Shown here: positions 4,834 through 61,671 of the stretch, one piece after another
Position numbering within the stretch: the first letter of the stretch is position 1
Layout of the letters: every line of letters begins with the position of its first letter
Virus record (IMG/VR): IMGVR_UViG_2873258297_000006
Span: 14,029 to 78,028 of that record
Direction: 5' to 3' (one strand)
From: a virus
Taxonomy: Duplodnaviria > Caudoviricetes
Length of the DNA: 64,000 nt
Made by a program: the position numbers and the translations under genes
Notes under the pieces: model-generated
Told to the model about the DNA's origin: nothing
Databases searched by the model: none
What the model saw: only the letters and a program-made list of their open reading frames with translations

Positions 4834-4940
4834 GGGGTTCCTCCCTAGAACGTTCACCGCGTCTTGCGGTGCAAGTAAGACGGTACGCCTCTCACGCCAA
4901 AACAACAACCCCGCCATGCAGTGAAAGTTTTAGGAGACCC

Positions 4941-5717
4941 ATGACCAGCCCCGACACCCTCGACATCACCCTCACCCCGCCCCCCGGCGGCCAGATACTC
5001 CACCAGTCCGACCGCGCCACCATCATCTGGGGAGACTGCCGCGACCCCGACGTCATAGCCCAAGTCCCCCTGGACTACGACCTGCTGTGCACCGACCCGC
5101 CCTACGGCGTGGGCTGGCAGTCCAGCCGGGGCAAAAACTTCGCCAAGATCGAGGGCGACGACGGGGCCACCGACTGGCCCGGCGTACTCAGGCTCTGGGC
5201 GCGCCGCCTGCGTAACTCCCGGCACGTCTACGTGTTCGGATACTCCTCGGACGAGTTGACCGAACCCCTCGGTCTCGGACCCACCGCCGAGATCATCTGG
5301 GACAAGAGGGCGATCGGCATGGGCAACCTGAGCATGCCCTGGGGGCCCGGACACGAAGTGATCACCTTCGGTGTGTCCAACGTGAACCCGAAGCACGGGG
5401 GGAAGGCCCGCCAGGGTGGGCTGACCGCCCGCATGAGGCAGGGATCCGTCATCCGCGTGCCTCGCAAGAACGCCACGGCCGTCACCCGGCATCCGACCGA
5501 AAAACCCTGGCCCCTGCTCGCACAACTGATCGAATCGTCCACCATGCGCGGCGACCTCGTCGTCGACCCATGCGCCGGATCGGGCAGCACCGGCGTTGCC
5601 GCCGTCCTCGAAGGCCGTCGCTGCTTCCTCGTCGAAGTCGACCGCCAGTACGCCGAACTCGCCGTCCAGCGAGTACAGGCGGCCGAGCGGCTCGCCCGGC
5701 AGATGGAGGCGTCGTGA
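4941..5717 (+). CDS. DNA (N6-adenine/N4-cytosine) methyltransferase, beta-type motif order
   Basis: Catalytic DPPY precedes SAM-binding DPCAGSGSTG; HPTEKP motif; RBS TAGGAG. Confidence 0.9.
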   Translation: MTSPDTLDITLTPPPGGQILHQSDRATIIWGDCRDPDVIAQVPLDYDLLCTDPPYGVGWQSSRGKNFAKIEGDDGATDWPGVLRLWARRLRNSRHVYVFGYSSDELTEPLGLGPTAEIIWDKRAIGMGNLSMPWGPGHEVITFGVSNVNPKHGGKARQGGLTARMRQGSVIRVPRKNATAVTRHPTEKPWPLLAQLIESSTMRGDLVVDPCAGSGSTGVAAVLEGRRCFLVEVDRQYAELAVQRVQAAERLARQMEAS

Positions 5718-19763: not shown

Positions 19764-21884
19764 ATGGCTACCCCGCTGAGCGACGAGCGCACGCCGCTGG
19801 CCCTCGTCACCGACACCCCGGAGAAGGTCGACCCCGCCGCGTCGTGGGTTGTGGAGAAGCGCCCGCGCCCTGCGTGGATGATGTCCGGCATACAGCTGCG
19901 GCAGTGGGCTATGTACGCGAAGGACAATACCGTCGACGCGGTTGTCTTCCACGCCACCCACTCGCCGTACTACCTCGGCTGGTCGCTGCGCGGCTACCGG
20001 CGCCTGTGCCTGCGCTGGTGGGAGGCCCGGCACGACGACTACCGGCAGCAGATCGCCACCGCCAAGCTGATGCTGCGCCAGGCGAAGGAGCAGCCTCGCG
20101 GTGCCGCGCGCGCCGCGGACGAGTCGAAGGCCCGCGCCCTCCTGGAGGTCCGCCGAGCCGAGTTCAAGGCGCACAAGAAGCGGCACTGGATCCGCACCGG
20201 CATCAGCGGCCTGATCATCGTCGGCGGGTCCATGGCCGCCTTCACGCAGGGCAGCTGGTGGATGCAGGTGCTGCTCGCCCTCGCGGTCATCTTCACCGGC
20301 GTCTACTTCGGCCGACCCGACGCGCCGACCGTCGCCCCGATCCAGGCGCCGACCCGTACCTCGCACCTCGGGGAGGAGACCATGCGGCGCGTCCTCGTCG
20401 AGGCCGGCGTCGTACCTGAGAAGCGGGCGACGGAGATCCGTGGCGTGGGCCTGCCCCACACCGATGGGCCCGGCATCGCTTACGCGGTCGACCTACCCTC
20501 CGGCATCCCCGCCTCTGCGGCGCTCGGTAAGGAGACGCAGAAGAAGATCGCGTCCGCTCTCGCCGTGCACCTGGACTGGATCGACCTCGACGTCGACCGC
20601 AGTCCCGGCAGCAGCGAGTCCCGCCTCACGGTGTGGGTATCCAACGGCGACCCGTTCGCCGTCGTCCGCCGCTCCCCGCTCCTCGACCACAAGGGGCAGC
20701 TCAACACCTTCCGCGACGGCATCCCAGCCTCGTTCGGAAAGCGCGGCAACCCGATCATCCTGCGGATCCGCGACACCAGCATCCTCGTTGCGGGCGCCAC
20801 CCGCCGCGGCAAGGGCATGTTCCTGGCGAACATCCTGATCGGCGTCATGAAGGACCCGTGGGTCAACGTCCGGATCTTCGACGGCAAGGGGACGGCAGAG
20901 CACAACCCCTACGCGCCGACCCTGGCCACGTTCGTGAAGCGCAACCCCGAGCGGCTCGCCATCATCACCCGCGCGATCGTCGCCGAACTCGACCGCCGCT
21001 CCGACCTCCTTGACGAGCACGGCTACGAGAAGATCGACGACGACAACTACGACGAGGTCATGGAACTCCTCGGCGGCCGGGAAGTCTTCATCTGCGACGA
21101 ACTCGCCACCTACACACCCAAGGGCACTAGCCCCTACGACGAGGAGATCACAGAGAACCTGTCGCAGATCGCCGCCGTCGGCGCTGCGCTCGGAGTCCTT
21201 CTCATCAGCGTCACCCAGGTTCCCGAGGTCAGCGTCATCCGCGGCCGACTCCGCCAGAACCACATCGGCCGCGCCGCGATGAACACCGAGTCCGGCACCG
21301 CGTCCAACACCATCCTCGGCGACGGCATGACCGGGCAGGGATATGACGCATCCAAGATCCCGATCGACCAGCCGGGGCGATTCTGGCTGGCCACCCCCGA
21401 GACCGGCGTCATCGAAGGCCGCTCCTACCTGGTCACGCCCGATGACAAGAAGCGGGTCGCGGCTGAGGGTTACGAGATCCGCAAGGCCGCCAGCCGCCTG
21501 CCAGGCCAGTGGCGCGACCCGATCGAGGAGCACCTGCAGCAGGTGACCGGCGTGTCCTCCGCGGCCGGCGGCGAGGGAGGCAAGGGGCGCATCGTCCACT
21601 TCGACTTCCTTACCTGGCTGGAGGATCTGGCCCTGTCCACGGGGCGCGGCAACGTCACGAACCTGGAAGTGTTCACCAGCCTCGTCGACATGTCGCCGGA
21701 GTATGCGCGCCGTGACGGCGAAACGGACGAGGGCTGGACTGCCCGGGTCGGGAAGCTCGTCAGGGACTTGATCGCTGCGACGGGCGCCGAACTGCGGGTC
21801 AAGCGCGTGCCGGTGGACGACGGGAAGCGCTCGCAGGGCTACCTCCTCGACGACGTCACGAAGGCCCGCAAAAGCCGCAAGTAA
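19764..21884 (+). CDS. traB: TraB-type FtsK/SpoIIIE conjugal DNA translocase
   Basis: N-terminal TM pair, Walker A AGATRRGKG, Walker B FICDE, RLRQN motif, C-terminal wHTH-like domain; not a phage structural gene. Confidence 0.8.
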   Translation: MATPLSDERTPLALVTDTPEKVDPAASWVVEKRPRPAWMMSGIQLRQWAMYAKDNTVDAVVFHATHSPYYLGWSLRGYRRLCLRWWEARHDDYRQQIATAKLMLRQAKEQPRGAARAADESKARALLEVRRAEFKAHKKRHWIRTGISGLIIVGGSMAAFTQGSWWMQVLLALAVIFTGVYFGRPDAPTVAPIQAPTRTSHLGEETMRRVLVEAGVVPEKRATEIRGVGLPHTDGPGIAYAVDLPSGIPASAALGKETQKKIASALAVHLDWIDLDVDRSPGSSESRLTVWVSNGDPFAVVRRSPLLDHKGQLNTFRDGIPASFGKRGNPIILRIRDTSILVAGATRRGKGMFLANILIGVMKDPWVNVRIFDGKGTAEHNPYAPTLATFVKRNPERLAIITRAIVAELDRRSDLLDEHGYEKIDDDNYDEVMELLGGREVFICDELATYTPKGTSPYDEEITENLSQIAAVGAALGVLLISVTQVPEVSVIRGRLRQNHIGRAAMNTESGTASNTILGDGMTGQGYDASKIPIDQPGRFWLATPETGVIEGRSYLVTPDDKKRVAAEGYEIRKAASRLPGQWRDPIEEHLQQVTGVSSAAGGEGGKGRIVHFDFLTWLEDLALSTGRGNVTNLEVFTSLVDMSPEYARRDGETDEGWTARVGKLVRDLIAATGAELRVKRVPVDDGKRSQGYLLDDVTKARKSRK

Positions 21885-49414: not shown

Positions 49415-49596
49415 CCCTGCTCGGCGACCGGCCCCGTCATCGTCGGATGCGGGTCCGGCTCGCCGTTGTGGAGGCGTTCGATCTCCGCCTCCAGCTCGCT
49501 GACGAGGGCCTTGAGGAGGATATTCTCGTCGGCGAGCTCGCCGTGCCGCTGCCGGAACGCCTTGAGCGCCCACTCGGGGCTGATCTGCTGGGCCAT
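49411..49596 (-). CDS. Small coiled-coil protein
   Basis: Coupled to the end of the GT gene. Confidence 0.55.
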   Translation of the reverse strand: MAQQISPEWALKAFRQRHGELADENILLKALVSELEAEIERLHNGEPDPHPTMTGPVAEQG

Positions 49597-50444
49597 CACG
49601 CCACCTTGTCTGCGAGCTCGCGGTACCGGTCGAGGAGATCGGTGTTGTTGAGGAACGGATGCTGCGGGAAAAACGACCAGTGACTGACCACGGCGTTGCC
49701 GATGAGGATGTTCGGCTGGCCGCTCACCGTCGGCCAGTGCACGGTGTGGAAATGCTCTTCCTCATCCGGCACCAGCACCCCGGGCTGAGGAAGCGAGGCG
49801 TAATCGCGGCCGGCTGAGGCGAAGCAGGACACGGAGAACTGCTCGCCGAGCTTGATGGGAAAGTCCTGGTACAGGAAGCAGTCCTCGACCGTGCCGGCCT
49901 CGACGTGCCCGATGAGCTTCTCGTGCATCTTCACGGCGAACGGGCCGTTCGCCCAGCCGACCGGATCCATGCAGTACGGGGAGACCTCGCCCCACTCGCG
50001 GGGGATGATGCCGCACTGCTGGAGGTACCAGGACACGAGCGCGTTGTTCCAGATGATCGGGAAGATGGCCTTCGACGGCTCCATCTCGATCTTCTTGCGG
50101 ACGAGGTTCTCGATCGAGTCGTCGTGGACGTACACCACGTCGTCGTCAAACCTCACGAAGATCGTGTCAGGGTCGGTGGCATACCGGTAGAAGTAGCCGG
50201 TCGAGCGCTGCTTCGGGCCGGGATGCTTCATCGGGCGCTCGATGATGCGGATCCAGTCGTACTGCTCGGCCAGCTGGTATCCGTAGGCGCGGTCGCTGAC
50301 CTGGCTGTCGTCGGTGTTCATGTACAGGATGTACTCGTCGACGATGCCGCGCTTCACGTCACGCTCGATGTACTTGACCAGGATGCTGACGGTGGACTCA
50401 CGGCCGAACGGAGTCCAGCAAGCCACCTTGTGACCGTCAATCAT
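49596..50444 (-). CDS. Glycosyltransferase (GT-A fold, GT2-like)
   Basis: WTPFGRES N-terminus; FVRFDDDVVY DxD motif. Confidence 0.75.
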   Translation of the reverse strand: MIDGHKVACWTPFGRESTVSILVKYIERDVKRGIVDEYILYMNTDDSQVSDRAYGYQLAEQYDWIRIIERPMKHPGPKQRSTGYFYRYATDPDTIFVRFDDDVVYVHDDSIENLVRKKIEMEPSKAIFPIIWNNALVSWYLQQCGIIPREWGEVSPYCMDPVGWANGPFAVKMHEKLIGHVEAGTVEDCFLYQDFPIKLGEQFSVSCFASAGRDYASLPQPGVLVPDEEEHFHTVHWPTVSGQPNILIGNAVVSHWSFFPQHPFLNNTDLLDRYRELADKVA

Positions 50445-51463
50445 GCTGCTGCCCTCTCTGCTGCGGGCGCAGAGAGCGCCGCTTCCCACTGCACGTTGAT
50501 GGCCTGCAGGATCGACCCGGAGGCCTCGGCGCGAGCGGCCATGCCCATCTGTTGCCGCAGCCCGGGATCGTCGACGAGCTGCTTCAAGTAGCGCCCCCAC
50601 TCGTGCTCGTGGCGCACGAGGAAGCCGTTCTCGCCGTGCCGGATCACTGCCCGGTACGGCTCGATGTCCGACGCGATCAGCGGAATGCCGAGCATCGACG
50701 ACTCGAGGAACTTCGTCGCGAACTTCGCCCGGTTGAACGGGATGTCCCTGTACGGCGCCACCCAGACGTCGAACGCCGCCACGGCCTGCAGGTAGTGGCC
50801 GAAGTTCTCCACCCAGCCGAGTGCACCCAGCCGCTCACCCTTCAACCCGCACGCGACCGCCGTCCGCGGGTCGATACCGACAAGGCGCACCACCACCCCG
50901 CCCGGCCGCCGATACTCCGCGATCCGGTTCAAGGCGCGCACCGCTTCGGGGAGTTCGTGCACCGTGGACGACGTGCCGGCCCAGCCGACGGACAGGATCT
51001 CCGGGTTGTAGTCGCGGACCGCGCCCAGGTATTGGGCGGGCAGCCCGTTGGGGACGACCCGCACGTCGTGGTGGTAGTCGCGCAGCACTTCGGCGAGCGG
51101 CTCCGAGCAGCAGGTGACCGTGTCGGAGATGGCGATGTTGTCGACCAGCCCCTGACGCAGCCGCGGGTCAGACCACAGCTGATAGGCCGCAGCGTTGGAC
51201 GGATCGAGGTGGAAGTAGTCGTCGTCGAGATCCATCACCAGGCGGATGCCAGCCTCGCGCATCTCCCGCCACGTCCGCGACGGGCCCGGCTTCGCCACCC
51301 GACAGCCCACCACCACGTCGAAACCCGGCTCCCGCCAGTCCTCGGGGAGACGCGGTCCGGCGGACGGCTTGTGGCCGATCCAGTCGAGGGACATGGCGGG
51401 GAGAACGCCGCGGTACAAACCCGAACCTGAGCCGTCCGCCGTCCAGAAGTGGATACGCGCCAC
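50441..51463 (-). CDS. Glycosyltransferase (GT-B fold, GT4-like)
   Basis: LVMDLDDDYF; VGWAGTSS; FDVWVAP...FNRAKFATKFLESSMLGIPLIASD...NGFLV. Confidence 0.85.
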   Translation of the reverse strand: MARIHFWTADGSGSGLYRGVLPAMSLDWIGHKPSAGPRLPEDWREPGFDVVVGCRVAKPGPSRTWREMREAGIRLVMDLDDDYFHLDPSNAAAYQLWSDPRLRQGLVDNIAISDTVTCCSEPLAEVLRDYHHDVRVVPNGLPAQYLGAVRDYNPEILSVGWAGTSSTVHELPEAVRALNRIAEYRRPGGVVVRLVGIDPRTAVACGLKGERLGALGWVENFGHYLQAVAAFDVWVAPYRDIPFNRAKFATKFLESSMLGIPLIASDIEPYRAVIRHGENGFLVRHEHEWGRYLKQLVDDPGLRQQMGMAARAEASGSILQAINVQWEAALSAPAAERAAA

Positions 51464-51464
51464 G

Positions 51465-52412
51465 TCAGGCCGCCAGATACCCGGGGAGCCAAGACTCCGC
51501 GTAGTAGCGGACGGTGTGGTGGATGCCCTCGTCGAGGGGCACGAAGTCCTTGGCGGTCATGCCGATCTGCTGCAGCGTCGACGTGTCGGAGGAGACGACC
51601 GCGTTGGGGACTTCACCCGGGCGCATCGGCAGGTGCTTGATGGCGACGGGCTCACGGCCGGTATAACGGGTGGCCTCCTCGGCGACCAAGCGCGCGATGT
51701 CGTTGACGGTGACGGAGTCGAGCGGGCCGCACTCGACGGGCTTCTCAGTGGGGCCGTGGACGGCGGTGTGCTCGAGGGCCTGAGCGAAGGTGCGGGCGAC
51801 GTCGGCGATGTACGCGCAGTCGCTGATCTGGGTGCCGTCGCCGTACACCTCGAGGGGTGCGCCGGTGAGGGCGCGGCACGTGAAGGCGGGGAGGATCTTC
51901 CGCACCTTGCCGGTGCCGTAGGGGGCGGCAACGGACTGGCCGGGGCCGTAGGCGTTGACCGGGCGGACGATGGTGATGCGGCCGTCGCGGTAGGCGTTGA
52001 ACATGCGCGCGTAGTCCTCGGCTGCGGTCTTGCTGATCGTGTACGAGCCGGTGCCGAGGTCTCTCATAAACGCGTTCCCGACACCCGCGTAGACGACTGG
52101 GAGCCCGTACTGGTTGGCAGCCTCGAAGACGTTGAGGCTGCCCCGGATGTTCGTCTCCGCCGACGGCCGCGGGTTCCCGATGGTTTCCTGCGTGCCGAGC
52201 ACGGCAGCGAGATGGATGATGCCCTCGACGTGGGCGGCGAGTTCGACGACGGCTGTCTCGTCGCGGATGTCGCCGAGGAAGAACTCCTCACGAGTGGCCA
52301 TCTCGGTGTGTGGGTTGCGGTCGAAGACGACGACCTGGTGCCCGCGTCGCAGCAGCTCGGTGCGGATCCATGAGCCGATGAAGCCCTGCCCGCCAGTGAC
52401 GCCGATCTTCAT
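51465..52412 (-). CDS. NAD-dependent nucleotide-sugar epimerase/dehydratase
   Basis: VTGGQGFIG; IHLAA; YTISK (YxxxK); RPVNAYGPGQ. Confidence 0.92.
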   Translation of the reverse strand: MKIGVTGGQGFIGSWIRTELLRRGHQVVVFDRNPHTEMATREEFFLGDIRDETAVVELAAHVEGIIHLAAVLGTQETIGNPRPSAETNIRGSLNVFEAANQYGLPVVYAGVGNAFMRDLGTGSYTISKTAAEDYARMFNAYRDGRITIVRPVNAYGPGQSVAAPYGTGKVRKILPAFTCRALTGAPLEVYGDGTQISDCAYIADVARTFAQALEHTAVHGPTEKPVECGPLDSVTVNDIARLVAEEATRYTGREPVAIKHLPMRPGEVPNAVVSSDTSTLQQIGMTAKDFVPLDEGIHHTVRYYAESWLPGYLAA

Positions 52413-54959: not shown

Positions 54960-55505
54960 TTGAACCTGTACTACGACTTGGAGTTCCTGGAGAACGGCCG
55001 CACCATCGAGCTGATCTCCATCGGCATGGTGTGCGACGACGGCCGCGAGTACTACGCGGTGAACCGGGACATGCCCGTGCGGCGGATCCGGAAGCACAAG
55101 TGGCTGATGGAGAACGTGGTGCCTGGGCTTCCGAAGGGCCACGGAGACCAGCGGATCCACATGCCGAAGCGCTGGCTCTTCCACTACGCCGACCACAGGG
55201 TGAAGCCCCGAAAGGTCATCGCGGATGAGGTCATGAACTTCATCCGAGCGGCTGGGTCGGACGTCGAGTTGTGGGCCAACTACGGGGCCTACGACCACGT
55301 CTGCCTCGCCCAACTCTGGGGCCGCATGATCGACCTCCCCGAAGGTGTCCCCATGTTCACCCGGGACATCCAGCAGGAACGCGCCCGCCTCGGCCTCGCA
55401 TGGAACGACCTTCCCCAGCAAGAAACGGGCGAGCACAACGCGCTCGCCGATGCCAGACACAACCAGACCGTCCGGCGCTGGCTCGCCGAACGCACACAGA
55501 AGTGA
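54960..55505 (+). CDS. DEDDh 3'-5' exo(ribo)nuclease
   Basis: YDLEFLE, NYGAYDHV, HNALADARH; TTG start. Confidence 0.85.
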   Translation: MNLYYDLEFLENGRTIELISIGMVCDDGREYYAVNRDMPVRRIRKHKWLMENVVPGLPKGHGDQRIHMPKRWLFHYADHRVKPRKVIADEVMNFIRAAGSDVELWANYGAYDHVCLAQLWGRMIDLPEGVPMFTRDIQQERARLGLAWNDLPQQETGEHNALADARHNQTVRRWLAERTQK

Positions 55506-56770: not shown

Positions 56771-57223
56771 CTATACCTTCAGCTTGTCCTCGGTCCGCCA
56801 TTTCTGTCGAAGCCGCCTGTTCTTCGCGGCTTCGCAGATGCTGCAATAGCGCTGACTCCCAGGGCCTCCCGATTTCGGGTAGACGCGGTCGAAGGGATGA
56901 CCCCTCTTGCAGTGCGTCTTGCGGGCGTTAATCGCGGAGACGGTGGCGGAGTCCTTGAGGGTGTTCTCCCTGACGGTGACCACCTGTAGGTGCTGAGCGT
57001 TGACGCAGGCCCGGCTGCGGCAGACGTGGTTGATGACCATGCCGTCGGGGATCTCCCCGTGCATGTCGTACCAGGCGACGCGATGGGCCCGCCGAGTCTT
57101 GCGGCGAAGGTAGAAAAACCCGTAGCCGTCTTTGTCGAGGCGGCCAGTCCATATGAGGCAGTCACTGTCGCGCCGCGTGCGCGACAGGAATCGTCCCCTT
57201 TCGGGAGTCGTGAGGTTTCCCAT
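56771..57223 (-). CDS. HNH endonuclease
   Basis: CLIWTG...GYG...AHRVAW...NHVCRSRACVNAQHL...KTHCKRGH. Confidence 0.9.
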   Translation of the reverse strand: MGNLTTPERGRFLSRTRRDSDCLIWTGRLDKDGYGFFYLRRKTRRAHRVAWYDMHGEIPDGMVINHVCRSRACVNAQHLQVVTVRENTLKDSATVSAINARKTHCKRGHPFDRVYPKSGGPGSQRYCSICEAAKNRRLRQKWRTEDKLKV

Positions 57224-57325
57224 GCTTCATTTATCTGGCCCGCACGGCACTAAAGGCCCGTCAGGTAATCAACTCGCCTTATTGATCTGTGACTTGCGTA
57301 ACGCATTCATGGAATAGGAAGCAGA

Positions 57326-57493
57326 ATGCCTGAGCCGATCCCGCGCGCCCGGCGCCGAGACGACACCGCAGCCGACATGACGAGCCTCGTCCAACTCGGC
57401 CGCGCCGACCCGCAATCCGTCCCCGCGCCGAGCATCAGCCCGTTCCTCGAACCCGACCTGCCGCCACCGCCCGCCGAAGGCGAACCCGCGTAA
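57326..57493 (+). CDS. Small hypothetical protein
   Basis: RBS TAGGAAG; 55 aa; followed by a hairpin. Confidence 0.55.
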   Translation: MPEPIPRARRRDDTAADMTSLVQLGRADPQSVPAPSISPFLEPDLPPPPAEGEPA

Positions 57494-57495
57494 CG

Positions 57496-57533
57496 ACGCC
57501 CCGCTCCTGCTTTGGCAGGCGGCGGGGCGTTTC
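57496..57533 (+). terminator. Intrinsic terminator
   Basis: ACGCCCCGC..CCTGC/GCAGG..GCGGGGCGT then TTC. Confidence 0.65.
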
Positions 57534-57615
57534 GTCATGCCTGGGGCGCCTGATGTTGAACTTGCTGGACAAGCAACACGGTTTGCCGGTTACAGTGGGT
57601 CCACAACTTCATGCA

Positions 57616-57686
57616 CCTCCCGGTGCGCAGGCCCGCGGCTACTTCTTTGGAAAAGTTCCGCCGCAGGTCGACTTGATCTCGGGAGG
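57616..57686 (+). ncRNA. Short Y-RNA-like ncRNA (71 nt)
   Basis: Terminal stem CCTCCCG/CGGGAGG; shares CCCGGTGCGCAGGC and TTGATCTCGGG with the adjacent RNA; upstream of the Ro60 gene. Confidence 0.7.
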
Positions 57687-57696
57687 CACAGCATCG

Positions 57697-57843
57697 GGGG
57701 TGCCCGGTGCGCAGGCAGCGGATACTTCTCCTGCTAAGAGAGAGACGCGGGTTCGAATCCCGTCCACCGGTCCAGGGGACCGGAGGTAGCTCAGCGGCCT
57801 AGAGCGCTTCGTCTCCGCAGCCGACCTTGATCTCGGGCACCCC
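57697..57843 (+). ncRNA. yrlA: YrlA-type tRNA-mimic Y RNA (147 nt)
   Basis: Terminal stem GGGGTGCCCG/CGGGCACCCC; T arm GCGGG-TTCGAAT-CCCGT, then capped acceptor-like hairpin, then TA-GCTC...GAGC D arm (permuted order); adjacent to rsr. Confidence 0.8.
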
Positions 57844-57855
57844 ACTGCTGGACCT

Positions 57856-57878
57856 CCCCTCCTATGCGAGGGGTTTTT
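57856..57878 (+). terminator. Terminator-like hairpin overlapping the rsr ribosome-binding site
   Basis: CCCCTC-CTATGC-GAGGGG-TTTTT immediately before ATG 57880. Confidence 0.55.
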
Positions 57879-57879
57879 C

Positions 57880-59508
57880 ATGGCCAGGTTCAACCAGCGC
57901 GGCACCCGTCCCGCCGTCCACTCGCCCGTGACCACAACCGGGGAGCGGACCGTCACCCACGAAGGCGCCACCGGGCACCTCCGCGATGCACGCTCCGAGC
58001 TCTTCCTGCTCGCCGTCTCCAACTTCGTTGGCCAGGACGTCTTCTACGAGAAGGGCGGCGACCGCGACGATCGATACACGCAGCTTGTTCGGCAGCTCGC
58101 CATCGAGGACCCCGAGTGGACGGCCGGCCTGCTCGGCTGGCTCCGCGGCGAAGGCAACATGCGGACCGCGGCACTCGTAGGCGCCGCCGAGTTCACCGCC
58201 GAACGGCTCCTCCACGAGGCACCCGGCTACTCCCGCCAGGTCATCGACTCTGTTCTCCAGCGCGCCGACGAGCCGGGGGAGATGCTCGGCTACTGGACAT
58301 CGAAGTACGGCCGCAAGCTGCCGAAGCCGGTGAAGCGCGGCATCGCCGACGCCGTACAGCGGCTCTACAACGAGCGGTCGCTCCTCAAGTACGACACCGA
58401 CTCCAAGGGCTACCGGTTCGGCGACGTCCTCAATCTCGTCCACGCGGCGCCCGACCCCGACAAGCCGTGGCAGGGAGACCTGTTCGCCTACTCGCTCGAC
58501 CGTCGGCACAAGCGCGGCACCGTCCCCGACCCCGACACACTGCCGACCCTCGCCCGGAACATGGCCTTCCCGGAGTTCGTTGACCACGCCCCGGCCATCC
58601 TCCTCGACGCCGACGAGGTGAAGCGCGCTGGCCTGACGTGGGAGATGGCGCTCTCGATGGCGGGCGGCAAGGTCGACAAGGCCAAGCTGTGGGAGGCGCT
58701 CATCCCGTCCATGGGAGTGATGGCGCTCGCCCGGAACCTACGGAACTTCGACGAGGCCGGGGTCTCCGACGAGGTCGCCGCGCGGATCTGCGCCCGGTTC
58801 GCTGACGCCGATCAGGTCGCCAAGTCACGCATGTTCCCCTTCCGCTGGTGGGCTGCCTACAAGCACGCTCCCTCCCTGCGGTGGGCCCACGCGCTCGAGC
58901 AGGCACTCGGCCACTCGCTCGCCAACGTGCCGCGCCTGAAGGGTCGGACGTTGATCCTGGTAGACCGGTCGCCGTCGATGTTCCCGGGCTACGGTTTCTC
59001 GACGCCGAACAGCTCCGACATCACGCTCGCCGAGCAGGCCGCTGCCTTCGGCTCCGCCCTCGCACTGCGGGCAGCTGACCCGACGCTCGTCGAGTTCGGA
59101 TGGACCAGCCAGAAGCTGGACGTCCCCAAGGGCGGCAGCGTCCTCAAGCTCATCGAACGCTTCGGGCAGATCGACGGCACCGACATCCCGTCCGCCGTCA
59201 AGCAGCACTACGACCTTCTCCGCCACAACCGGATCGTCATCGTCACCGACGAGCAGACCCGGCCCGGCTGGCTGCCCTCCAACGGCTGGCAGCGCGGAGG
59301 CATGCGCGAAACCCAGATCGACGACCTCATCCCCAAGACCGTGCCCGTCTACATGTGGAACATGGCGGGCTACAAGCCCGGCGCTATGCCGTCCGGAACC
59401 GCGGGCCGGCACACCTTTGGCGGGCTCACCGACCATGCCTTCCGGATGGTGCCGCTCCTCGAATCCGGCCGTGACGCCGACTGGCCGTGGGTCTCGAAGC
59501 AGGCCTGA
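57880..59508 (+). CDS. rsr: TROVE-domain Ro60 ortholog (Rsr) with C-terminal vWA domain
   Basis: ELFLLAVSNF..., RGEGNMRT, LLKY, MALARNLRN, FPFR..AY, MIDAS-like DRSPSM, TDI, IVTDEQ. Confidence 0.9.
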   Translation: MARFNQRGTRPAVHSPVTTTGERTVTHEGATGHLRDARSELFLLAVSNFVGQDVFYEKGGDRDDRYTQLVRQLAIEDPEWTAGLLGWLRGEGNMRTAALVGAAEFTAERLLHEAPGYSRQVIDSVLQRADEPGEMLGYWTSKYGRKLPKPVKRGIADAVQRLYNERSLLKYDTDSKGYRFGDVLNLVHAAPDPDKPWQGDLFAYSLDRRHKRGTVPDPDTLPTLARNMAFPEFVDHAPAILLDADEVKRAGLTWEMALSMAGGKVDKAKLWEALIPSMGVMALARNLRNFDEAGVSDEVAARICARFADADQVAKSRMFPFRWWAAYKHAPSLRWAHALEQALGHSLANVPRLKGRTLILVDRSPSMFPGYGFSTPNSSDITLAEQAAAFGSALALRAADPTLVEFGWTSQKLDVPKGGSVLKLIERFGQIDGTDIPSAVKQHYDLLRHNRIVIVTDEQTRPGWLPSNGWQRGGMRETQIDDLIPKTVPVYMWNMAGYKPGAMPSGTAGRHTFGGLTDHAFRMVPLLESGRDADWPWVSKQA

Positions 59509-59520
59509 CCGAACGCCGAC

Positions 59521-59560
59521 GCCCCCGCTCCTCTCGCCTCAACGGCGGGGGAGCGGGGGC
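59521..59560. terminator. Hairpin between convergent genes
   Basis: GCCCCCGCTCC...GGAGCGGGGGC. Confidence 0.65.
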
Positions 59561-59580
59561 GCCTCGTCGTGCTCCAGCGG

Positions 59581-59850
59581 TCAGATCGGCGCGGGGCCGC
59601 TGCCGGTGAAGGTCGTGGCCTCCGTGCCGTCGGCGCGGGTGGCGATGATGACACCTTCCTTGCCGTCTGGCATCCGAAGTAGCACTCGGTCGGCTGACGC
59701 CAACTTGAAGCCGAGTCCCGCCTCGGGCGCACTCACGGAGCCGTGCCACTCCTTCAGCGGGCCGTCCGTGAAGGTGGTGAAGCGTGCGTAGACAGGGATC
59801 GCCTCGCCGTCGATGACGACGTGGGCCTTGCTCTCGTAGTCCTTTGCCAT
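59581..59850 (-). CDS. Hypothetical beta-rich protein
   Basis: 89-aa natural-looking ORF converging on rsr. Confidence 0.55.
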   Translation of the reverse strand: MAKDYESKAHVVIDGEAIPVYARFTTFTDGPLKEWHGSVSAPEAGLGFKLASADRVLLRMPDGKEGVIIATRADGTEATTFTGSGPAPI

Positions 59851-59994
59851 GCCGACAGTGTGCACCGCGCGTCTGACAGCCAGGACGATCCACGCGATCG
59901 CTAGCGCATAACGTTCCCTTGGGCGCTGCCAGTTGATCAGCGACGGCCCGCGATAACATGCCATATCGAGGGCGAAAAATTGGTACAATCGGGT

Positions 59995-60381
59995 ATGGCT
60001 GACGACCTGACACTCGGAGAGATTCGCAGCGAACTTCAGCGCCTCGCATCCTTGGCTTGCAGCATCGAGCGCCCCAAGCCGACCCGCATCAACGGCCCCG
60101 AGCACCAGTGGCCCGGACATGAGTGGGATCTGCGCGAGATGACGCCCCCGCACGGCACCAAGGACAAGGTGTGGGTCATCCGCACCGTCGACGAACGGGA
60201 CGCGGCCGACGGGCTGGTGTATGTATCCACCCCGGAGTCGATGTACCCCGGTCTGGACTTCGTGCCGCTCTACGCCTCCGACGCGCGATTGCTCGCCATG
60301 GCACTCCTTGCCGCAGCGGATCGCGCCGACCATGAGGCTCTTGGCGTACCGCGCCTCGAAGACCGACGGAAGGCGGGCTGA
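59995..60381 (+). CDS. Hypothetical protein
   Basis: Preceded by AT-rich TACAAT -10-like element. Confidence 0.6.
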   Translation: MADDLTLGEIRSELQRLASLACSIERPKPTRINGPEHQWPGHEWDLREMTPPHGTKDKVWVIRTVDERDAADGLVYVSTPESMYPGLDFVPLYASDARLLAMALLAAADRADHEALGVPRLEDRRKAG

Positions 60382-60382
60382 C

Positions 60383-60658
60383 GTGACCGAGCCCTACGAC
60401 CCGCTGCCGGATGTCATCGAGCGGGCAGAGAAGCGCCCTGACGGCGTCGGCCAGTTGAAGGACGTCGCCCGGCTCGCCCTCCACTGGCACAGGCCCACGC
60501 TGACGTGGGCCACGAGCGGCATGCGCAAAGACCCCGAGACAGGCGAAAACCTCTGGCGTGCGGCAACCGTGTGCGCCTGCGGGGTCGGCGAGTTCCCGTG
60601 CCCCCAACGCCAGCAGCTCACAGCGATCCTCGGCGTGGTCGAGGAGTACCAGCCGTGA
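60383..60658 (+). CDS. Hypothetical protein
   Basis: GTG start; overlaps the recombinase start. Confidence 0.55.
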   Translation: MTEPYDPLPDVIERAEKRPDGVGQLKDVARLALHWHRPTLTWATSGMRKDPETGENLWRAATVCACGVGEFPCPQRQQLTAILGVVEEYQP

Positions 60659-61671
60659 CCGACCTCGCCCCGCGCCAGCCAGACGCCACGCCCGTGGTCC
60701 GCGACCCCAGGGCGCTTGCCGTCCTGGCCGCCATGGAGAAGGCAGCCGAACAACACCTCGACGCCATCCGCCCCGAAAACACGAAACGCAGCTATGCCAA
60801 CGACTGGGACCTGTGGCGGGAGTTCCACGACTGGCTCGCCGAGCAGACCAGCCACCGGCTCGCGTTGACCGACGTCACCAAAGGCACCCTCGTCGGATTC
60901 GTGGTCTGGCTCGACACGATCAAGCTCGCCGCGCCCAACAGCATCGACCGCAGGATCACCGGTGTCACCGTCACAGCCCGCCGCGAGCACGGCGTCGAGG
61001 TACCGAAGGAGGCGACCGTCGCCGCCCGACAGGCCCTCAAGCCGCTGAAGGCAGACGAGGACCGCATCGCCCGCGGACGCGGAGCAGCCAAGGCGGTGAC
61101 CCCGAAGCAGCTCCGGCAGATGGCCGCCGCCGTACCCGACGGGCTCACCGGACTACGCGACCGCGCCCTCTGGCTCATGGCCTTCTTCATCGCAGGCCGC
61201 TCCGCCGAAGTCGCCGCACTCCGAACCGAAGGCATCACCCTCCACAGCGAAGGCCTCAAGGTCCGAGTCCCCGGCGTCAAAGGCAAGCCCGCCCGCGAAG
61301 TCGTCGTCATGTACGACAAGAACCCCGACACCTGCCCCGTCCGCGCCTGGTCCACCTGGAAGGCGACCAGCGGCATCACCACCGGTGCCGCCTTCCGCCC
61401 CATCGACGTGTGGGGCAACATTGCCGACCGGCATCTGACCGCCGAAGCCGTCCGCGAGATCATCGCCCGCAATGCCGAACGCGCTGGCGTCGCGGTGCGC
61501 TTGACCGGCCACAGCATGCGCGCTGGATTCATCACCGCCTCTCGCCGGGCAGGCAAGCGCGAAGAGAAGATCCGCGCCCAGTCCGGCCACGCCGAGAACA
61601 GCCCCGCCTTCTGGGGCTACATCCGGGACGCCGACAAGTGGACCGACGCTGCATCCGAGGACATCCTCTGA
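60655..61671 (+). CDS. Tyrosine recombinase (Cre/Xer-like)
   Basis: NTKRSYANDW; LRDRAL..MAFFIAGRSAEV; LTGHSMRAG; QSGH; terminal Tyr in FWGYIR; no arm-binding domain apparent. Confidence 0.88.
   Translation: MTDLAPRQPDATPVVRDPRALAVLAAMEKAAEQHLDAIRPENTKRSYANDWDLWREFHDWLAEQTSHRLALTDVTKGTLVGFVVWLDTIKLAAPNSIDRRITGVTVTARREHGVEVPKEATVAARQALKPLKADEDRIARGRGAAKAVTPKQLRQMAAAVPDGLTGLRDRALWLMAFFIAGRSAEVAALRTEGITLHSEGLKVRVPGVKGKPAREVVVMYDKNPDTCPVRAWSTWKATSGITTGAAFRPIDVWGNIADRHLTAEAVREIIARNAERAGVAVRLTGHSMRAGFITASRRAGKREEKIRAQSGHAENSPAFWGYIRDADKWTDAASEDIL

What the first reader, a model, noticed from the sequence alone, without database searches (positions are those of the whole stretch)
57616..59508. Phage-encoded Ro60 (Rsr) with two tandem Y RNAs
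Seen: two self-closing hairpin RNAs (57616-57686 and 57697-57843) share a 14-nt 5' block CCCGGTGCGCAGGC, a GCGG(C/A)TACTTCT block and a 3' G(T/C)CGA..TTGATCTCGGG block. They sit directly upstream of a full-length TROVE+vWA gene. Known: bacterial Rsr binds the terminal stem of Y RNAs encoded beside it (Salmonella rsr-yrlBA-rtcBA; Deinococcus RYPER). Seen: no rtcB/rtcA is in this window. Inference: an autonomous phage RNP module that may act as a decoy or shield against tRNA-targeting defences or redirect host RNA decay.
Basis: partly seen in the sequence, partly recalled or inferred. Interest (0 to 1): 0.9.

Follow-up and report, generated by a model that had tools for sequence, protein, structure and literature searches.

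The report
Prophage Ro60 gene with two Y RNAs
An 83.5-kb prophage in a Streptomyces chromosome carries its own Ro60 (Rsr) ring protein gene preceded by two small partner RNAs, one of them a tRNA look-alike; this is a clean new example of a protein-RNA module already described in bacteria and phages.

Summary
At 57614-57688 and 57695-57844 lie two structured RNAs with the same closing-stem blocks, directly upstream of a full-length Ro60/Rsr gene (57880-59508). Comparison with 77 and 84 distinct relatives supports both folds; the long RNA shows strong covariation. The long RNA is a YrlA-type permuted tRNA mimic. The short one is a YrlB-like hairpin. The protein model matches every solved Ro60 structure and keeps the MIDAS residues.

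"Phage-encoded" is also right. The module lies inside an 83.5-kb insertion bounded by perfect 95-bp repeats, and congeners have an empty site. The Rsr falls in a clade rich in viral contigs, apart from the host's own rsr (61% identity), which has three Y RNAs.

The kind is not new. YrlA RNAs beside Ro60 were reported in 22 phages in 2014, and Thermus phage phiLo Ro60 with two upstream Y-like RNAs was characterised in 2025. This scan has also noted phage Ro60/RNA modules on other DNA many times.

The decoy idea is untested. Small additions:
- the module is a promoter-to-terminator unit;
- the rsr ribosome-binding site sits inside a conserved terminator-like hairpin;
- the short RNA's closing helix is invariant and resembles an SD/anti-SD pair.

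No expression data were found.

The parts
57495..57531 (+). Strong hairpin after the upstream small ORF (stop at 57491-57493). It is terminator-like and insulates the module on its 5' side.
   Evidence: Fold of 57494-57540: -32.1 kcal/mol, z -5.2, 0 of 200 shuffles as stable. The U tract is weak (UUUCGUC), so termination is inferred.
57591..57596 (+). Candidate -10 hexamer TACAGT of the Y RNA/rsr promoter.
   Evidence: TACAGT, TATGGT, TAGAGT or TACATT is kept at the same distance from the short RNA in the prophage-clade loci, and in chromosomal loci that lack a distal YrlA. The E. coli-type consensus scan found no promoter. Inferred, not shown.
57603..57613 (+). Conserved leader ACAACUUCAUG just before the short RNA.
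   Evidence: The same or nearly the same (one or two changes, or a short insertion) in most prophage-clade and chromosomal loci.
57614..57688 (+). Short Y RNA (YrlB-like): a long hairpin. It has a closing helix carrying the GGUGCGCAGG / UUGAUCUC blocks, an inner GCGGC/GCCGC helix and a pyrimidine-rich apical region.
   Evidence: Model R1 hit at 82 bits, one of only two in the 8.7-Mb genome, both beside an rsr gene. 18 pairs, 5 with compensatory changes; closing helix almost invariant in 77 distinct copies.
57695..57844 (+). Long Y RNA (YrlA-type): the same closing-stem blocks plus a circularly permuted tRNA-like domain.
   Evidence: Model R2 hit at 142.6 bits. 31 pairs in 5 helices, 20 with compensatory changes, 0 of 500 shuffles as good. 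Rfam YrlA partial hit 57744-57805, 21.8 bits, E 0.039.
57726..57742 (+). Anticodon-arm-like hairpin (the 'V' stem-loop of Chen 2014): UUCUC / CUGCUAA / GAGAG, followed by the 4-nt AGAC.
   Evidence: Read from the sequence. 71 of 87 relatives have a 5-bp stem (at least 4 pairs) with a 7-nt loop at this place, and 54 of those keep U at loop position 2 and a purine at position 6.
57747..57763 (+). T arm GCGGG-UUCGAAU-CCCGU.
   Evidence: GGUUCGAAUCC is nearly invariant. Helix 3 is 100% paired, and 3 of its 5 pairs have double changes. Aligned to the T arm of Rfam YrlA and of tRNA.
57764..57786 (+). Closed acceptor-like stem: 7 positions with one A-A mismatch, a 3-bp extension and an AGG loop. UCCA follows its 3' strand.
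   Evidence: Helix 4: 6 of 7 pairs show compensatory changes. The stem has 7 of 7 pairs in 66 of 86 relatives. An encoded NCCA occurs in only 7 of 86.
57789..57805 (+). D arm GCUC-AGCGGCCUA-GAGC, preceded by UA (positions 8 and 9 of a tRNA).
   Evidence: Helix 5 is 97.9% paired, and 3 of its 4 pairs have double changes. Aligned to the D arm of Rfam YrlA.
57856..57878 (+). Terminator-like hairpin CCCCUC-loop-GAGGGG plus U5, ending one base before the rsr ATG. Its 3' arm GAGGGG (57868-57873) is the likely rsr Shine-Dalgarno.
   Evidence: It is the only terminator-like site found in 57200-59700. The same hairpin and U tract occur directly before the start codon in all 24 prophage-clade loci examined. 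Its function is inferred.
57880..59508 (+). rsr: a Ro60 orthologue of 542 aa, with a TROVE/HEAT-repeat ring and a vWA domain with a MIDAS site.
   Evidence: Pfam TROVE and phrog_850 at 5e-46. Sequence match to phiLo Ro60 9KOP/9L5Y at 5e-32. AlphaFold model pLDDT 85, pTM 0.80. The Ro60 structures listed take Foldseek ranks 1-11 and 13, TM 0.61-0.72 on target length. D362, S364, S366, T434 and D457 are invariant in 29 relatives.
59513..59570 (.). Very stable hairpin between the rsr stop and the convergent ORF 59581-60333(-). Likely a two-way terminator closing the module.
   Evidence: -45.9 kcal/mol, z -6.6, 0 of 200 shuffles as stable.
54960..55505 (+). Context: Rv2179c-like 3'-5' exoribonuclease gene 2.4 kb upstream. 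It is a recurrent but not obligatory neighbour of this rsr.
   Evidence: Pfam PF16473 at 6.5e-15. Homologues of 69-87% identity lie 2-4 kb upstream of rsr in 9 viral contigs. The family occurs in 234 phage records, against 71 that hold a Ro60 relative.
60505..61671 (+). Context: prophage integrase. The right attachment repeat lies just outside the window, at window coordinates 65178-65272.
   Evidence: Pfam Phage_integrase. The same integrase (75-80% identity) lies within 6 kb of rsr in 10 related loci. 95-bp perfect repeats and an empty site in congeners.

Best explanation
This is a Ro60 (Rsr)/Y RNA ribonucleoprotein module carried by a temperate Streptomyces phage that is integrated as an 83.5-kb prophage.

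The module is one self-contained transcription unit. A promoter with a conserved TACAGT -10 element drives a precursor. That precursor holds a short hairpin Y RNA (YrlB-like) and a 150-nt YrlA-type Y RNA. A terminator-like hairpin then ends most transcripts one base before the rsr start codon. The same hairpin buries the rsr ribosome-binding site, so RNA is probably made in excess over protein.

Both RNAs present the same closing helix (GGUGCGCAGG paired across from UUGAUCUC), which is the counterpart of the Ro-binding helix of known Y RNAs. The Rsr ring binds that helix. The other end of the long RNA is a permuted tRNA mimic with anticodon-like, T, closed acceptor and D arms. It serves as the effector-recruiting end.

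By analogy with Deinococcus, Salmonella and phage phiLo, the particle most likely couples the Rsr ring to a 3'-5' exoribonuclease, namely the host PNPase. This would change which structured RNAs are degraded or trimmed, either in the lysogen or during lytic growth.

Shown here: the anatomy, conservation and covariation of the RNAs; the fold of the protein; the location in a prophage; and separate descent from the host's own rsr. Inferred: transcription, processing, Rsr binding, the exonuclease partner and the benefit to the phage.
For: RNAs: the shared blocks can be read in the sequence. There is strong covariation in all five helices of the long RNA and in the inner helix of the short one. 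In the whole 8.7-Mb genome the short-RNA model hits only the two places next to rsr genes. The long-RNA model gives full-length hits only at the three YrlA-type copies beside them; its two other hits are the host locus's short RNA (59 bits) and a partial 42-bit match at 5.95 Mb that was not examined.

Protein: TROVE and phrog_850 matches. A confident model whose best structural matches are the solved Ro60 structures. Invariant MIDAS residues.

Phage origin: terminase, portal, capsid, tape measure, tail and lysin genes lie in the window. Perfect 95-bp direct repeats lie 83.5 kb apart. Left and right flanks are contiguous in 11 congeners. The window's Rsr falls in a 27-row clade (support 99) with 17 viral contigs, while the host paralogue falls in a 31-row clade made only of genome sequences. 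The same integrase lies near rsr in 10 related loci.

Unit architecture: flanking hairpins, a conserved -10 element, and a conserved terminator/SD hairpin.

Literature: Rsr-bound YrlA and YrlB are processed from one precursor upstream of rsr in M. smegmatis, and YrlA was found in 22 phages (PMC4201824). phiLo Ro60 binds two upstream Y-like RNAs and forms a complex with host PNPase (PMC12135203).
Against: There is no evidence of transcription, processing or binding for this locus. Rfam's YrlA model scores only 21.8 bits against a gathering score of 69, and covers only the tRNA-like core. The published 5' motif GNCGAA(N)G is matched only approximately: GUGCGCAGG here, GUGCGAAGG in some relatives. 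The order of the RNAs (short first, YrlA-type next to rsr) is the reverse of M. smegmatis. No exonuclease partner was tested. The role of the tRNA-like domain is unknown even in the studied systems.
Confidence: 0.85

Rival explanations
1. The conserved structures are mainly a cis-acting leader of the rsr mRNA. In this reading they are Rsr-binding sites plus an SD-sequestering terminator that autoregulate rsr, rather than stable trans-acting Y RNAs.
For: They lie on the same strand directly upstream of rsr. No terminator separates the two RNAs. A conserved terminator-like hairpin contains the rsr Shine-Dalgarno. No full-length Y RNA copy is found away from an rsr gene in this genome.
Against: In M. 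smegmatis the homologous upstream RNAs accumulate as discrete Rsr-bound species (PMC4201824). The tRNA-like domain is conserved far beyond what a protein-binding leader would need. The two roles do not exclude each other.
Confidence: 0.1
2. The long RNA's tRNA mimic acts as a decoy or sponge for host tRNA-targeting defences such as anticodon nucleases, with Rsr protecting or presenting it.
For: The tRNA-like domain keeps a 5-bp/7-nt hairpin with an anticodon-loop-like CU-NNN-AA pattern. The central triplet differs between relatives: GUU 13, GCU 13, GUC 8, CAU 4. The module sits in an accessory position of a temperate phage.
Against: There is no experimental or genomic link to any defence system. 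The same architecture is present beside the chromosomal rsr of about half of the sampled Streptomyces species, so it is not a phage-specific invention. In the studied systems the particle works with exoribonucleases.
Confidence: 0.06
3. The stretch 57704-57774 is an ordinary tRNA-Ser(GCU) gene or pseudogene, as ARAGORN calls it, and the rest is chance.
For: ARAGORN call. Rfam tRNA partial match of 19.9 bits. A related phage record annotates the equivalent stretch as tRNA-Arg.
Against: The Rfam tRNA score is below the gathering score of 29. No D arm lies at the tRNA position. The D arm lies after the closed acceptor stem, and that permuted order is supported by compensatory changes in 6 of 7 acceptor pairs. 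The 5' strand that ARAGORN uses as acceptor (GGUGCG) is invariant although its supposed partner varies.
Confidence: 0.01
4. The rsr/Y RNA module is host chromosomal DNA that merely lies next to a prophage.
For: The host genus commonly has a chromosomal rsr (100 of 200 species genomes sampled). The module's nearest non-prophage relative is the host-type rsr at about 60% identity, closer than any isolated phage at 50% or less.
Against: The module lies 5.7 kb inside the right attachment repeat of an insertion that is absent from 11 congeners. It groups with viral contigs in the tree. It shares an integrase, and in some loci exonuclease neighbours, with them.
Confidence: 0.02

Closest known systems
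Mycobacterium smegmatis Rsr with YrlA and YrlB (Chen et al. 2014, PMC4201824)
   Same: An actinobacterial Ro60 orthologue with two Y RNAs encoded directly upstream on the same strand and not linked to rtcBA. One RNA has a T arm, a closed 7-bp acceptor-like stem and a D arm. The other is a long hairpin. The published RNAs are processed from one precursor.
   Different: Here the order is short RNA first and YrlA-type next to rsr. The element is on a prophage, not the chromosome. [quoted passage not shown]
Thermus phage phiLo Ro60 with Yrl1 and Yrl2 (PMC12135203; PDB 9KOP, 9L5Y)
   Same: A phage-encoded Ro60 with two Y-like RNAs immediately upstream. It is the closest solved structure by sequence (E 5e-32) and by fold.
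   Different: About 25% identity over the structural alignment. phiLo has a 178.5-kb genome; this is an integrating temperate phage of 83.5 kb. The phiLo RNAs are described as stem-bulge-stem Y-like RNAs; whether either carries a tRNA-like domain was not checked here. The PNPase complex is shown for phiLo, not here.
Salmonella Typhimurium YrlA (Rfam RF02553; structure 6CU1, 10.1101/312249) in the rsr-yrlBA-rtcBA operon
   Same: A modular Y RNA: a Rsr-binding stem formed by the 5' and 3' ends, plus a permuted tRNA-like domain with T arm, closed acceptor stem and D arm.
   Different: Salmonella YrlA lacks an anticodon loop and has a 6-bp acceptor stem. Its locus is under RtcR control next to rtcBA. 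Here a 7-nt anticodon-like loop and a 7-position acceptor-like stem are present, and rtcB is elsewhere in the genome. The Rfam model scores below threshold.
Ro-like RNA-binding proteins of isolated actinophages (Streptomyces phages Kela, JustBecause, BRock; Gordonia phage VanLee)
   Same: Annotated Ro60 orthologues in phages of the same host group. VanLee has at least two YrlA-type RNAs upstream of its Ro gene, one of them annotated as tRNA-Arg.
   Different: At most 50% protein identity to the window's Rsr. The closing-stem sequence differs in VanLee. The window's lineage is closer to the host-type rsr (61%) and is known only from prophages and viral contigs.

Membership tests
Ro60 / Rsr (TROVE + vWA ring protein) | TROVE domain detectable by sequence | tested here: met
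   Pfam PF05731, 58.3 bits against a cut-off of 23, although only residues 253-326 align. phrog_850 covers residues 20-531 at 5e-46. phiLo Ro60 matches at E 5e-32 in two stretches.
Ro60 / Rsr (TROVE + vWA ring protein) | HEAT-repeat ring plus C-terminal vWA fold | tested here: met
   AlphaFold model pLDDT 85.2, pTM 0.80. The listed Foldseek ranks 1-11 and 13 are all Ro60 structures (9KOP, 9L5Y, 1YVP, 1YVR, 2NVO, 2I91, 9NEN and others), with TM 0.61-0.72 on target length.
Ro60 / Rsr (TROVE + vWA ring protein) | MIDAS motif (DxSxS plus T and D) in the vWA domain | tested here: met
   D362, S364, S366, T434 and D457 are invariant in the 29-sequence alignment. DRSPS can be read at 58963-58977.
YrlA-type Y RNA (sensu Chen et al. 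2014) | Encoded close to the Ro60 gene (within a few kb) on the same strand | tested here: met
   The 3' end at 57844 is 35 nt from the rsr ATG, on the same strand.
YrlA-type Y RNA (sensu Chen et al. 2014) | tRNA-like domain: T arm, closed acceptor-like stem, D arm in that order | tested here: met
   Helices 3, 4 and 5 are 98-100% paired, with compensatory changes in 12 of 16 pairs. They align to Rfam YrlA positions 28-81.
YrlA-type Y RNA (sensu Chen et al. 2014) | 5' motif GNCGAA(N0-1)G in a stem formed by the 5' and 3' ends (candidate Rsr site) | tested here: inconclusive
   The stem is present and covaries (helices 1 and 2). The motif here is GUGCGCAGG. Some relatives have GUGCGAAGG, which contains CGAAGG. 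This is a near match, not an exact one.
YrlA-type Y RNA (sensu Chen et al. 2014) | Bound by Rsr in vivo | not testable with these tools
   Needs co-immunoprecipitation. No RNA run was listed for this locus.
Rfam RF02553 (YrlA) as curated | Score at or above the gathering threshold of 69 bits | tested here: not met
   21.8 bits, E 0.039, model positions 28-81 of 114 only. There is no hit at gathering thresholds in the whole window. I therefore do not file it under the Rfam family as such, only under the wider YrlA type.
YrlB-like second Y RNA | [quoted passage not shown] | tested here: met
   Fold and consensus structure. It has the same closing-stem blocks as the long RNA, and its apical region is CUUCUUUGG. 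YrlB is defined by binding, which was not tested.
Integrated temperate phage (prophage) | Virion, lysis and integrase genes bounded by direct repeats, with an empty site in relatives | tested here: met
   genes; 95-bp repeats 83.5 kb apart; flanks contiguous in 11 congeners.

The most novel reading that the evidence does not exclude
The short Y RNA may be more than a second Rsr ligand. Its closing helix is almost invariant in 77 distinct Streptomycetaceae copies, phage and chromosomal alike, whereas the long RNA's equivalent helix covaries freely. The helix pairs CACCUCC (identical to 7 nt of the host 16S rRNA 3' tail) with GGGAGG (a Shine-Dalgarno-like sequence). Ro60 is reported to open the Y RNA helix on binding. 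If so, the freed strands could guide the Rsr/exonuclease particle to the 16S 3' end or to ribosome-binding sites. That would give the prophage a handle on ribosome turnover or translation.
Probability: 0.06. Interest if true: 0.7.

Novelty: new member of a known kind. Interest (0 to 1): 0.35.

Why it matters
It adds a well-delimited temperate-phage lineage to the known Ro60/Y RNA modules. That lineage is integrated in a genetically tractable host genus that also carries its own paralogous module. This makes a practical system for an open question: what a phage gains from a Ro60 particle, and what the tRNA-like domain recruits. Host and prophage copies can be deleted separately. The lysogen can be induced. 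The two sets of RNAs share a nearly identical Rsr-binding helix, so cross-binding can be tested. The conserved hairpin that combines a terminator with the rsr ribosome-binding site suggests a simple way in which RNA-to-protein ratios are set. It also shows that such RNAs are still annotated as tRNAs in phage records. None of this changes the known picture of the system.

Tried and rejected
- Rfam at gathering thresholds over the whole window gave no hit. At relaxed thresholds only a partial YrlA hit and a partial tRNA hit appeared, plus chance-level matches to mir-1257, SorX and others. The SorX match is just the terminator hairpin.
- ARAGORN's tRNA-Ser call was rejected on the covariation evidence.
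- The E. coli-type promoter scan found nothing. The -10 element was found only by comparing relatives.
- The host PhoX-like upstream neighbour was tried as a synteny marker for chromosomal loci and gave no hits, so it was dropped.
- I considered that the Rv2179c-like exoribonuclease is a dedicated partner of this Rsr. It recurs near rsr in 9 viral contigs. But the family occurs in 234 phage records, far more than the 71 that hold a Ro60 relative, and in VanLee it lies 17 kb from the Ro gene. I therefore make no claim, and no complex prediction was run.
- I considered that the encoded UCCA after the acceptor strand is functional. It is present in only 7 of 86 relatives, so it is probably incidental.
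- The supplementary tables of Chen 2014 that list the phages are not held.
Full report
**What is in the sequence.** The stretch 57600-57880 contains two adjacent elements on the + strand. They share three blocks:
- CCCGGTGCGCAGGC, at 57619-57632 and 57703-57716;
- GCGG(C/A)TACTTCT, at 57635-57646 and 57718-57729;
- G(T/C)CGAC(C)TTGATCTCGGG, at 57667-57684 and 57821-57838.

Each element folds back on itself so that its first and last blocks pair. The ORF that follows (57880-59508, 542 aa) matches the TROVE domain and the phage family phrog_850 over nearly its whole length.

**Are the RNAs real?** I fetched 80 loci from species genomes and 35 from viral contigs that encode a relative of the protein. 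In nearly all of them the same blocks lie upstream of the gene.

An alignment of 84 distinct copies of the long element gives a consensus of five helices with 31 pairs. Of all cells, 98.8% are standard pairs, 20 pairs show changes on both sides, and none of 500 column shuffles reaches any of the five measures. Sliding the partners by 1-3 columns drops pairing to 37-50%.

The short element (77 distinct copies) has 18 pairs. Five have compensatory changes, all in the inner part.

Covariance models built from these alignments were run on the whole 8.7-Mb genome. The short-RNA model finds two places. The long-RNA model finds three full-length copies. All of these lie directly upstream of one of the two rsr genes. 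The long-RNA model also gives a 59-bit hit on the host locus's short RNA and a weak partial hit at 5.95 Mb, which I did not examine. These are conserved structured RNAs tied to rsr, not chance hairpins.

**Anatomy of the long RNA.** Read 5' to 3', it consists of:
- a closing helix with the invariant GGUGCG...UGAUCUC blocks;
- an inner helix, GCGG/CCGC;
- a 5-bp hairpin with the 7-nt loop CUGCUAA (57726-57742), then four bases;
- a T arm, GCGGG-UUCGAAU-CCCGU (57747-57763);
- a closed acceptor-like stem (57764-57786), then UA;
- a D arm, GCUC-AGCGGCCUA-GAGC (57789-57805);
- the return strands.

This is the circularly permuted tRNA layout described for YrlA (PMC4201824; 10.1101/312249). Rfam's YrlA model aligns to the T, acceptor and D part only. 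It scores 21.8 bits, far below its gathering score of 69. By Rfam's criterion the RNA is therefore not a member, although it has the YrlA architecture.

ARAGORN calls 57704-57774 a tRNA-Ser. That reading uses the invariant GGUGCG strand as an acceptor strand, whereas the compensatory changes support the closed stem instead. I reject it. A related phage record annotates the equivalent RNA as tRNA-Arg.

Two details differ from Salmonella YrlA, which lacks an anticodon loop and has a 6-bp acceptor stem:
- The hairpin before the T arm keeps an anticodon-loop-like CU-NNN-AA pattern. 54 of the 71 relatives that have a 5-bp (at least 4 pairs)/7-nt hairpin there keep U at loop position 2 and a purine at position 6, and the central triplets vary.
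- The acceptor-like stem has seven pairs in 66 of 86 relatives. That is the stem length reported for M. smegmatis YrlA, which is cut by RNase P.

**The short RNA.** It has the same closing and inner helices, but a short pyrimidine-rich apical hairpin replaces the tRNA-like domain. This fits the 'long hairpin' second Y RNA reported in all three studied bacteria (PMC4201824). Ten bases separate it from the long RNA, with no terminator between them. The two are probably cut from one precursor, as in M. smegmatis.

**The protein.** An AlphaFold model built on 29 relatives is confident (pLDDT 85, pTM 0.80). Its best structural matches are the Ro60 structures: phage phiLo, Xenopus, human and Deinococcus, with TM 0.61-0.72 on target length. 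Integrin-type vWA domains follow. The MIDAS residues are invariant. By sequence, the closest solved relative is phiLo Ro60.

**Is it phage-encoded?** Yes, for four reasons:
- The window holds a terminase, portal, major capsid protein, tape measure, minor tail protein, amidase-type lysin and integrase.
- A perfect 95-bp direct repeat lies at window coordinates -18265..-18171 and 65178..65272, which is 83.5 kb apart. This matches the size of related viral contigs.
- In 11 congeneric genomes the left and right flanks are contiguous and overlap at the repeat. This is an empty site. The rsr module lies 5.7 kb inside the right end.
- In a FastTree of 115 Rsr proteins, the window's protein sits in a 27-row clade (support 99) that contains 17 viral contigs. 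The host's second rsr (61% identity, C1:6708157-6709731) sits in a 31-row clade made only of genome sequences.

Ten related loci carry the same integrase within 6 kb. The host copy has three upstream RNAs, in the order YrlA-type, short, YrlA-type.

Among 200 congeneric species genomes, 100 have an Rsr match, and only three have one at 70% identity or more to the prophage type. Isolated phages reach at most 50% identity. This lineage is therefore known only from prophages and viral contigs, and it is closer to the host type than to the large lytic Streptomyces phages.

**The transcription unit.** The module is bracketed by two very stable hairpins, at 57495-57531 and about 59513-59570. A TACAGT-like -10 element is conserved about 18 nt upstream of the short RNA.

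A hairpin, CCCCUC-loop-GAGGGG, followed by five U's ends one base before the rsr ATG. Its 3' arm is the only plausible Shine-Dalgarno. This arrangement is present in all 24 prophage-clade loci examined. The chromosomal clade has a different conserved element, GAAUUC-GGGGG-AAUUC.

I infer that most transcripts stop as Y RNA precursors and that rsr is translated from read-through transcripts with a masked ribosome-binding site. This is not shown.

**Function.** No RNA data could be found, so everything beyond anatomy rests on homology. In Deinococcus and Salmonella the Y RNA tethers Rsr to PNPase. In phage phiLo, Ro60, its Y-like RNA and host PNPase form a ternary complex (PMC4201824, PMC12135203). 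The most likely role here is the same kind of exonuclease-coupled RNA surveillance or decay, supplied by the prophage in addition to the host's own system.

The same architecture beside the chromosomal rsr argues against a phage-specific invention. RtcB is not linked: the genome's two copies are at 2.83 and 3.79 Mb.

**Novelty.** Ro60 in phages has been known since 2003. YrlA RNAs next to it were reported in 22 phages in 2014, and a phage Ro60 with two upstream Y-like RNAs was characterised in 2025. This scan has also noted many phage Ro60/RNA loci on other DNA.

This is a new member of a known kind. The points that go a little beyond the literature I could read are:
- the temperate, attachment-site-proximal setting alongside a host paralogue;
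- the combined terminator and ribosome-binding-site hairpin;
- the invariant SD/anti-SD-like helix of the short RNA.

Noticed in passing
window 57614-57627 and 57674-57688: The short RNA's closing helix (CACCUCCCGG.../...CUCGGGAGG) is almost invariant (single exceptions at three pairs) in 77 distinct copies from both prophage and chromosomal clades, while the long RNA's equivalent helix covaries. Its 5' strand equals 7 nt of this genome's 16S rRNA 3' tail (GGAUCACCUCCUUUCU), and its 3' strand is Shine-Dalgarno-like.
   Followed up: partly
window 57856-57878: A terminator-like hairpin whose 3' arm is the rsr Shine-Dalgarno. It is conserved in all 24 prophage-clade loci examined. The chromosomal clade instead has GAAUUC-GGGGG-AAUUC before the ATG.
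   Followed up: partly
window 54960-55505: An Rv2179c-like 3'-5' exoribonuclease gene lies between the lysin and the rsr module. Homologues lie 2-4 kb upstream of rsr in 9 viral contigs whose Rsr is 53-83% identical. The family is common in actinophages (234 records, against 71 with a Ro60 relative), where it is annotated as DnaQ-like or RNase H.
   Followed up: partly
G000:C1:6707722-6709731 (loci L002, L005): The host chromosome has its own rsr (61% identity) preceded by three Y RNAs in the order YrlA-type, short, YrlA-type. The leader ACAACUUCAUG and the short RNA's closing helix are identical to the prophage copy.
   Followed up: partly
locus L006 4690-5230 (Gordonia phage VanLee, NC_073474.1): Two YrlA-type RNAs (4847-4982 and 4991-5137), and apparently two short hairpin RNAs, lie upstream of the Ro-like gene. 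The record annotates 4997-5068, part of the second YrlA-type RNA, as tRNA-Arg(tct).
   Followed up: partly
window coordinates -18265..-18171 and 65178..65272 (G000:C1:7296968-7297062 and 7380411-7380505): Perfect 95-bp attachment repeats of the 83.5-kb prophage. The core lies in a stretch of host DNA that is 80-88% conserved in all 24 congeners searched, possibly the 3' end of a gene. The flanks are contiguous in the 11 congeners compared.
   Followed up: yes
window 49596-52412 (- strand): A leftward gene block with a group-1 glycosyltransferase and an NAD-dependent sugar epimerase lies between the tail genes and the lysin.
   Followed up: no
window 19764-21884: A 706-aa FtsK/SpoIIIE-like ATPase gene (phrog_1358) lies within the prophage's early region, upstream of the terminase.
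   Followed up: no
window 57775-57778: UCCA (a discriminator-like base plus CCA) is encoded directly after the 3' strand of the acceptor-like stem. Only 7 of 86 relatives have it, so it is probably incidental.
   Followed up: yes
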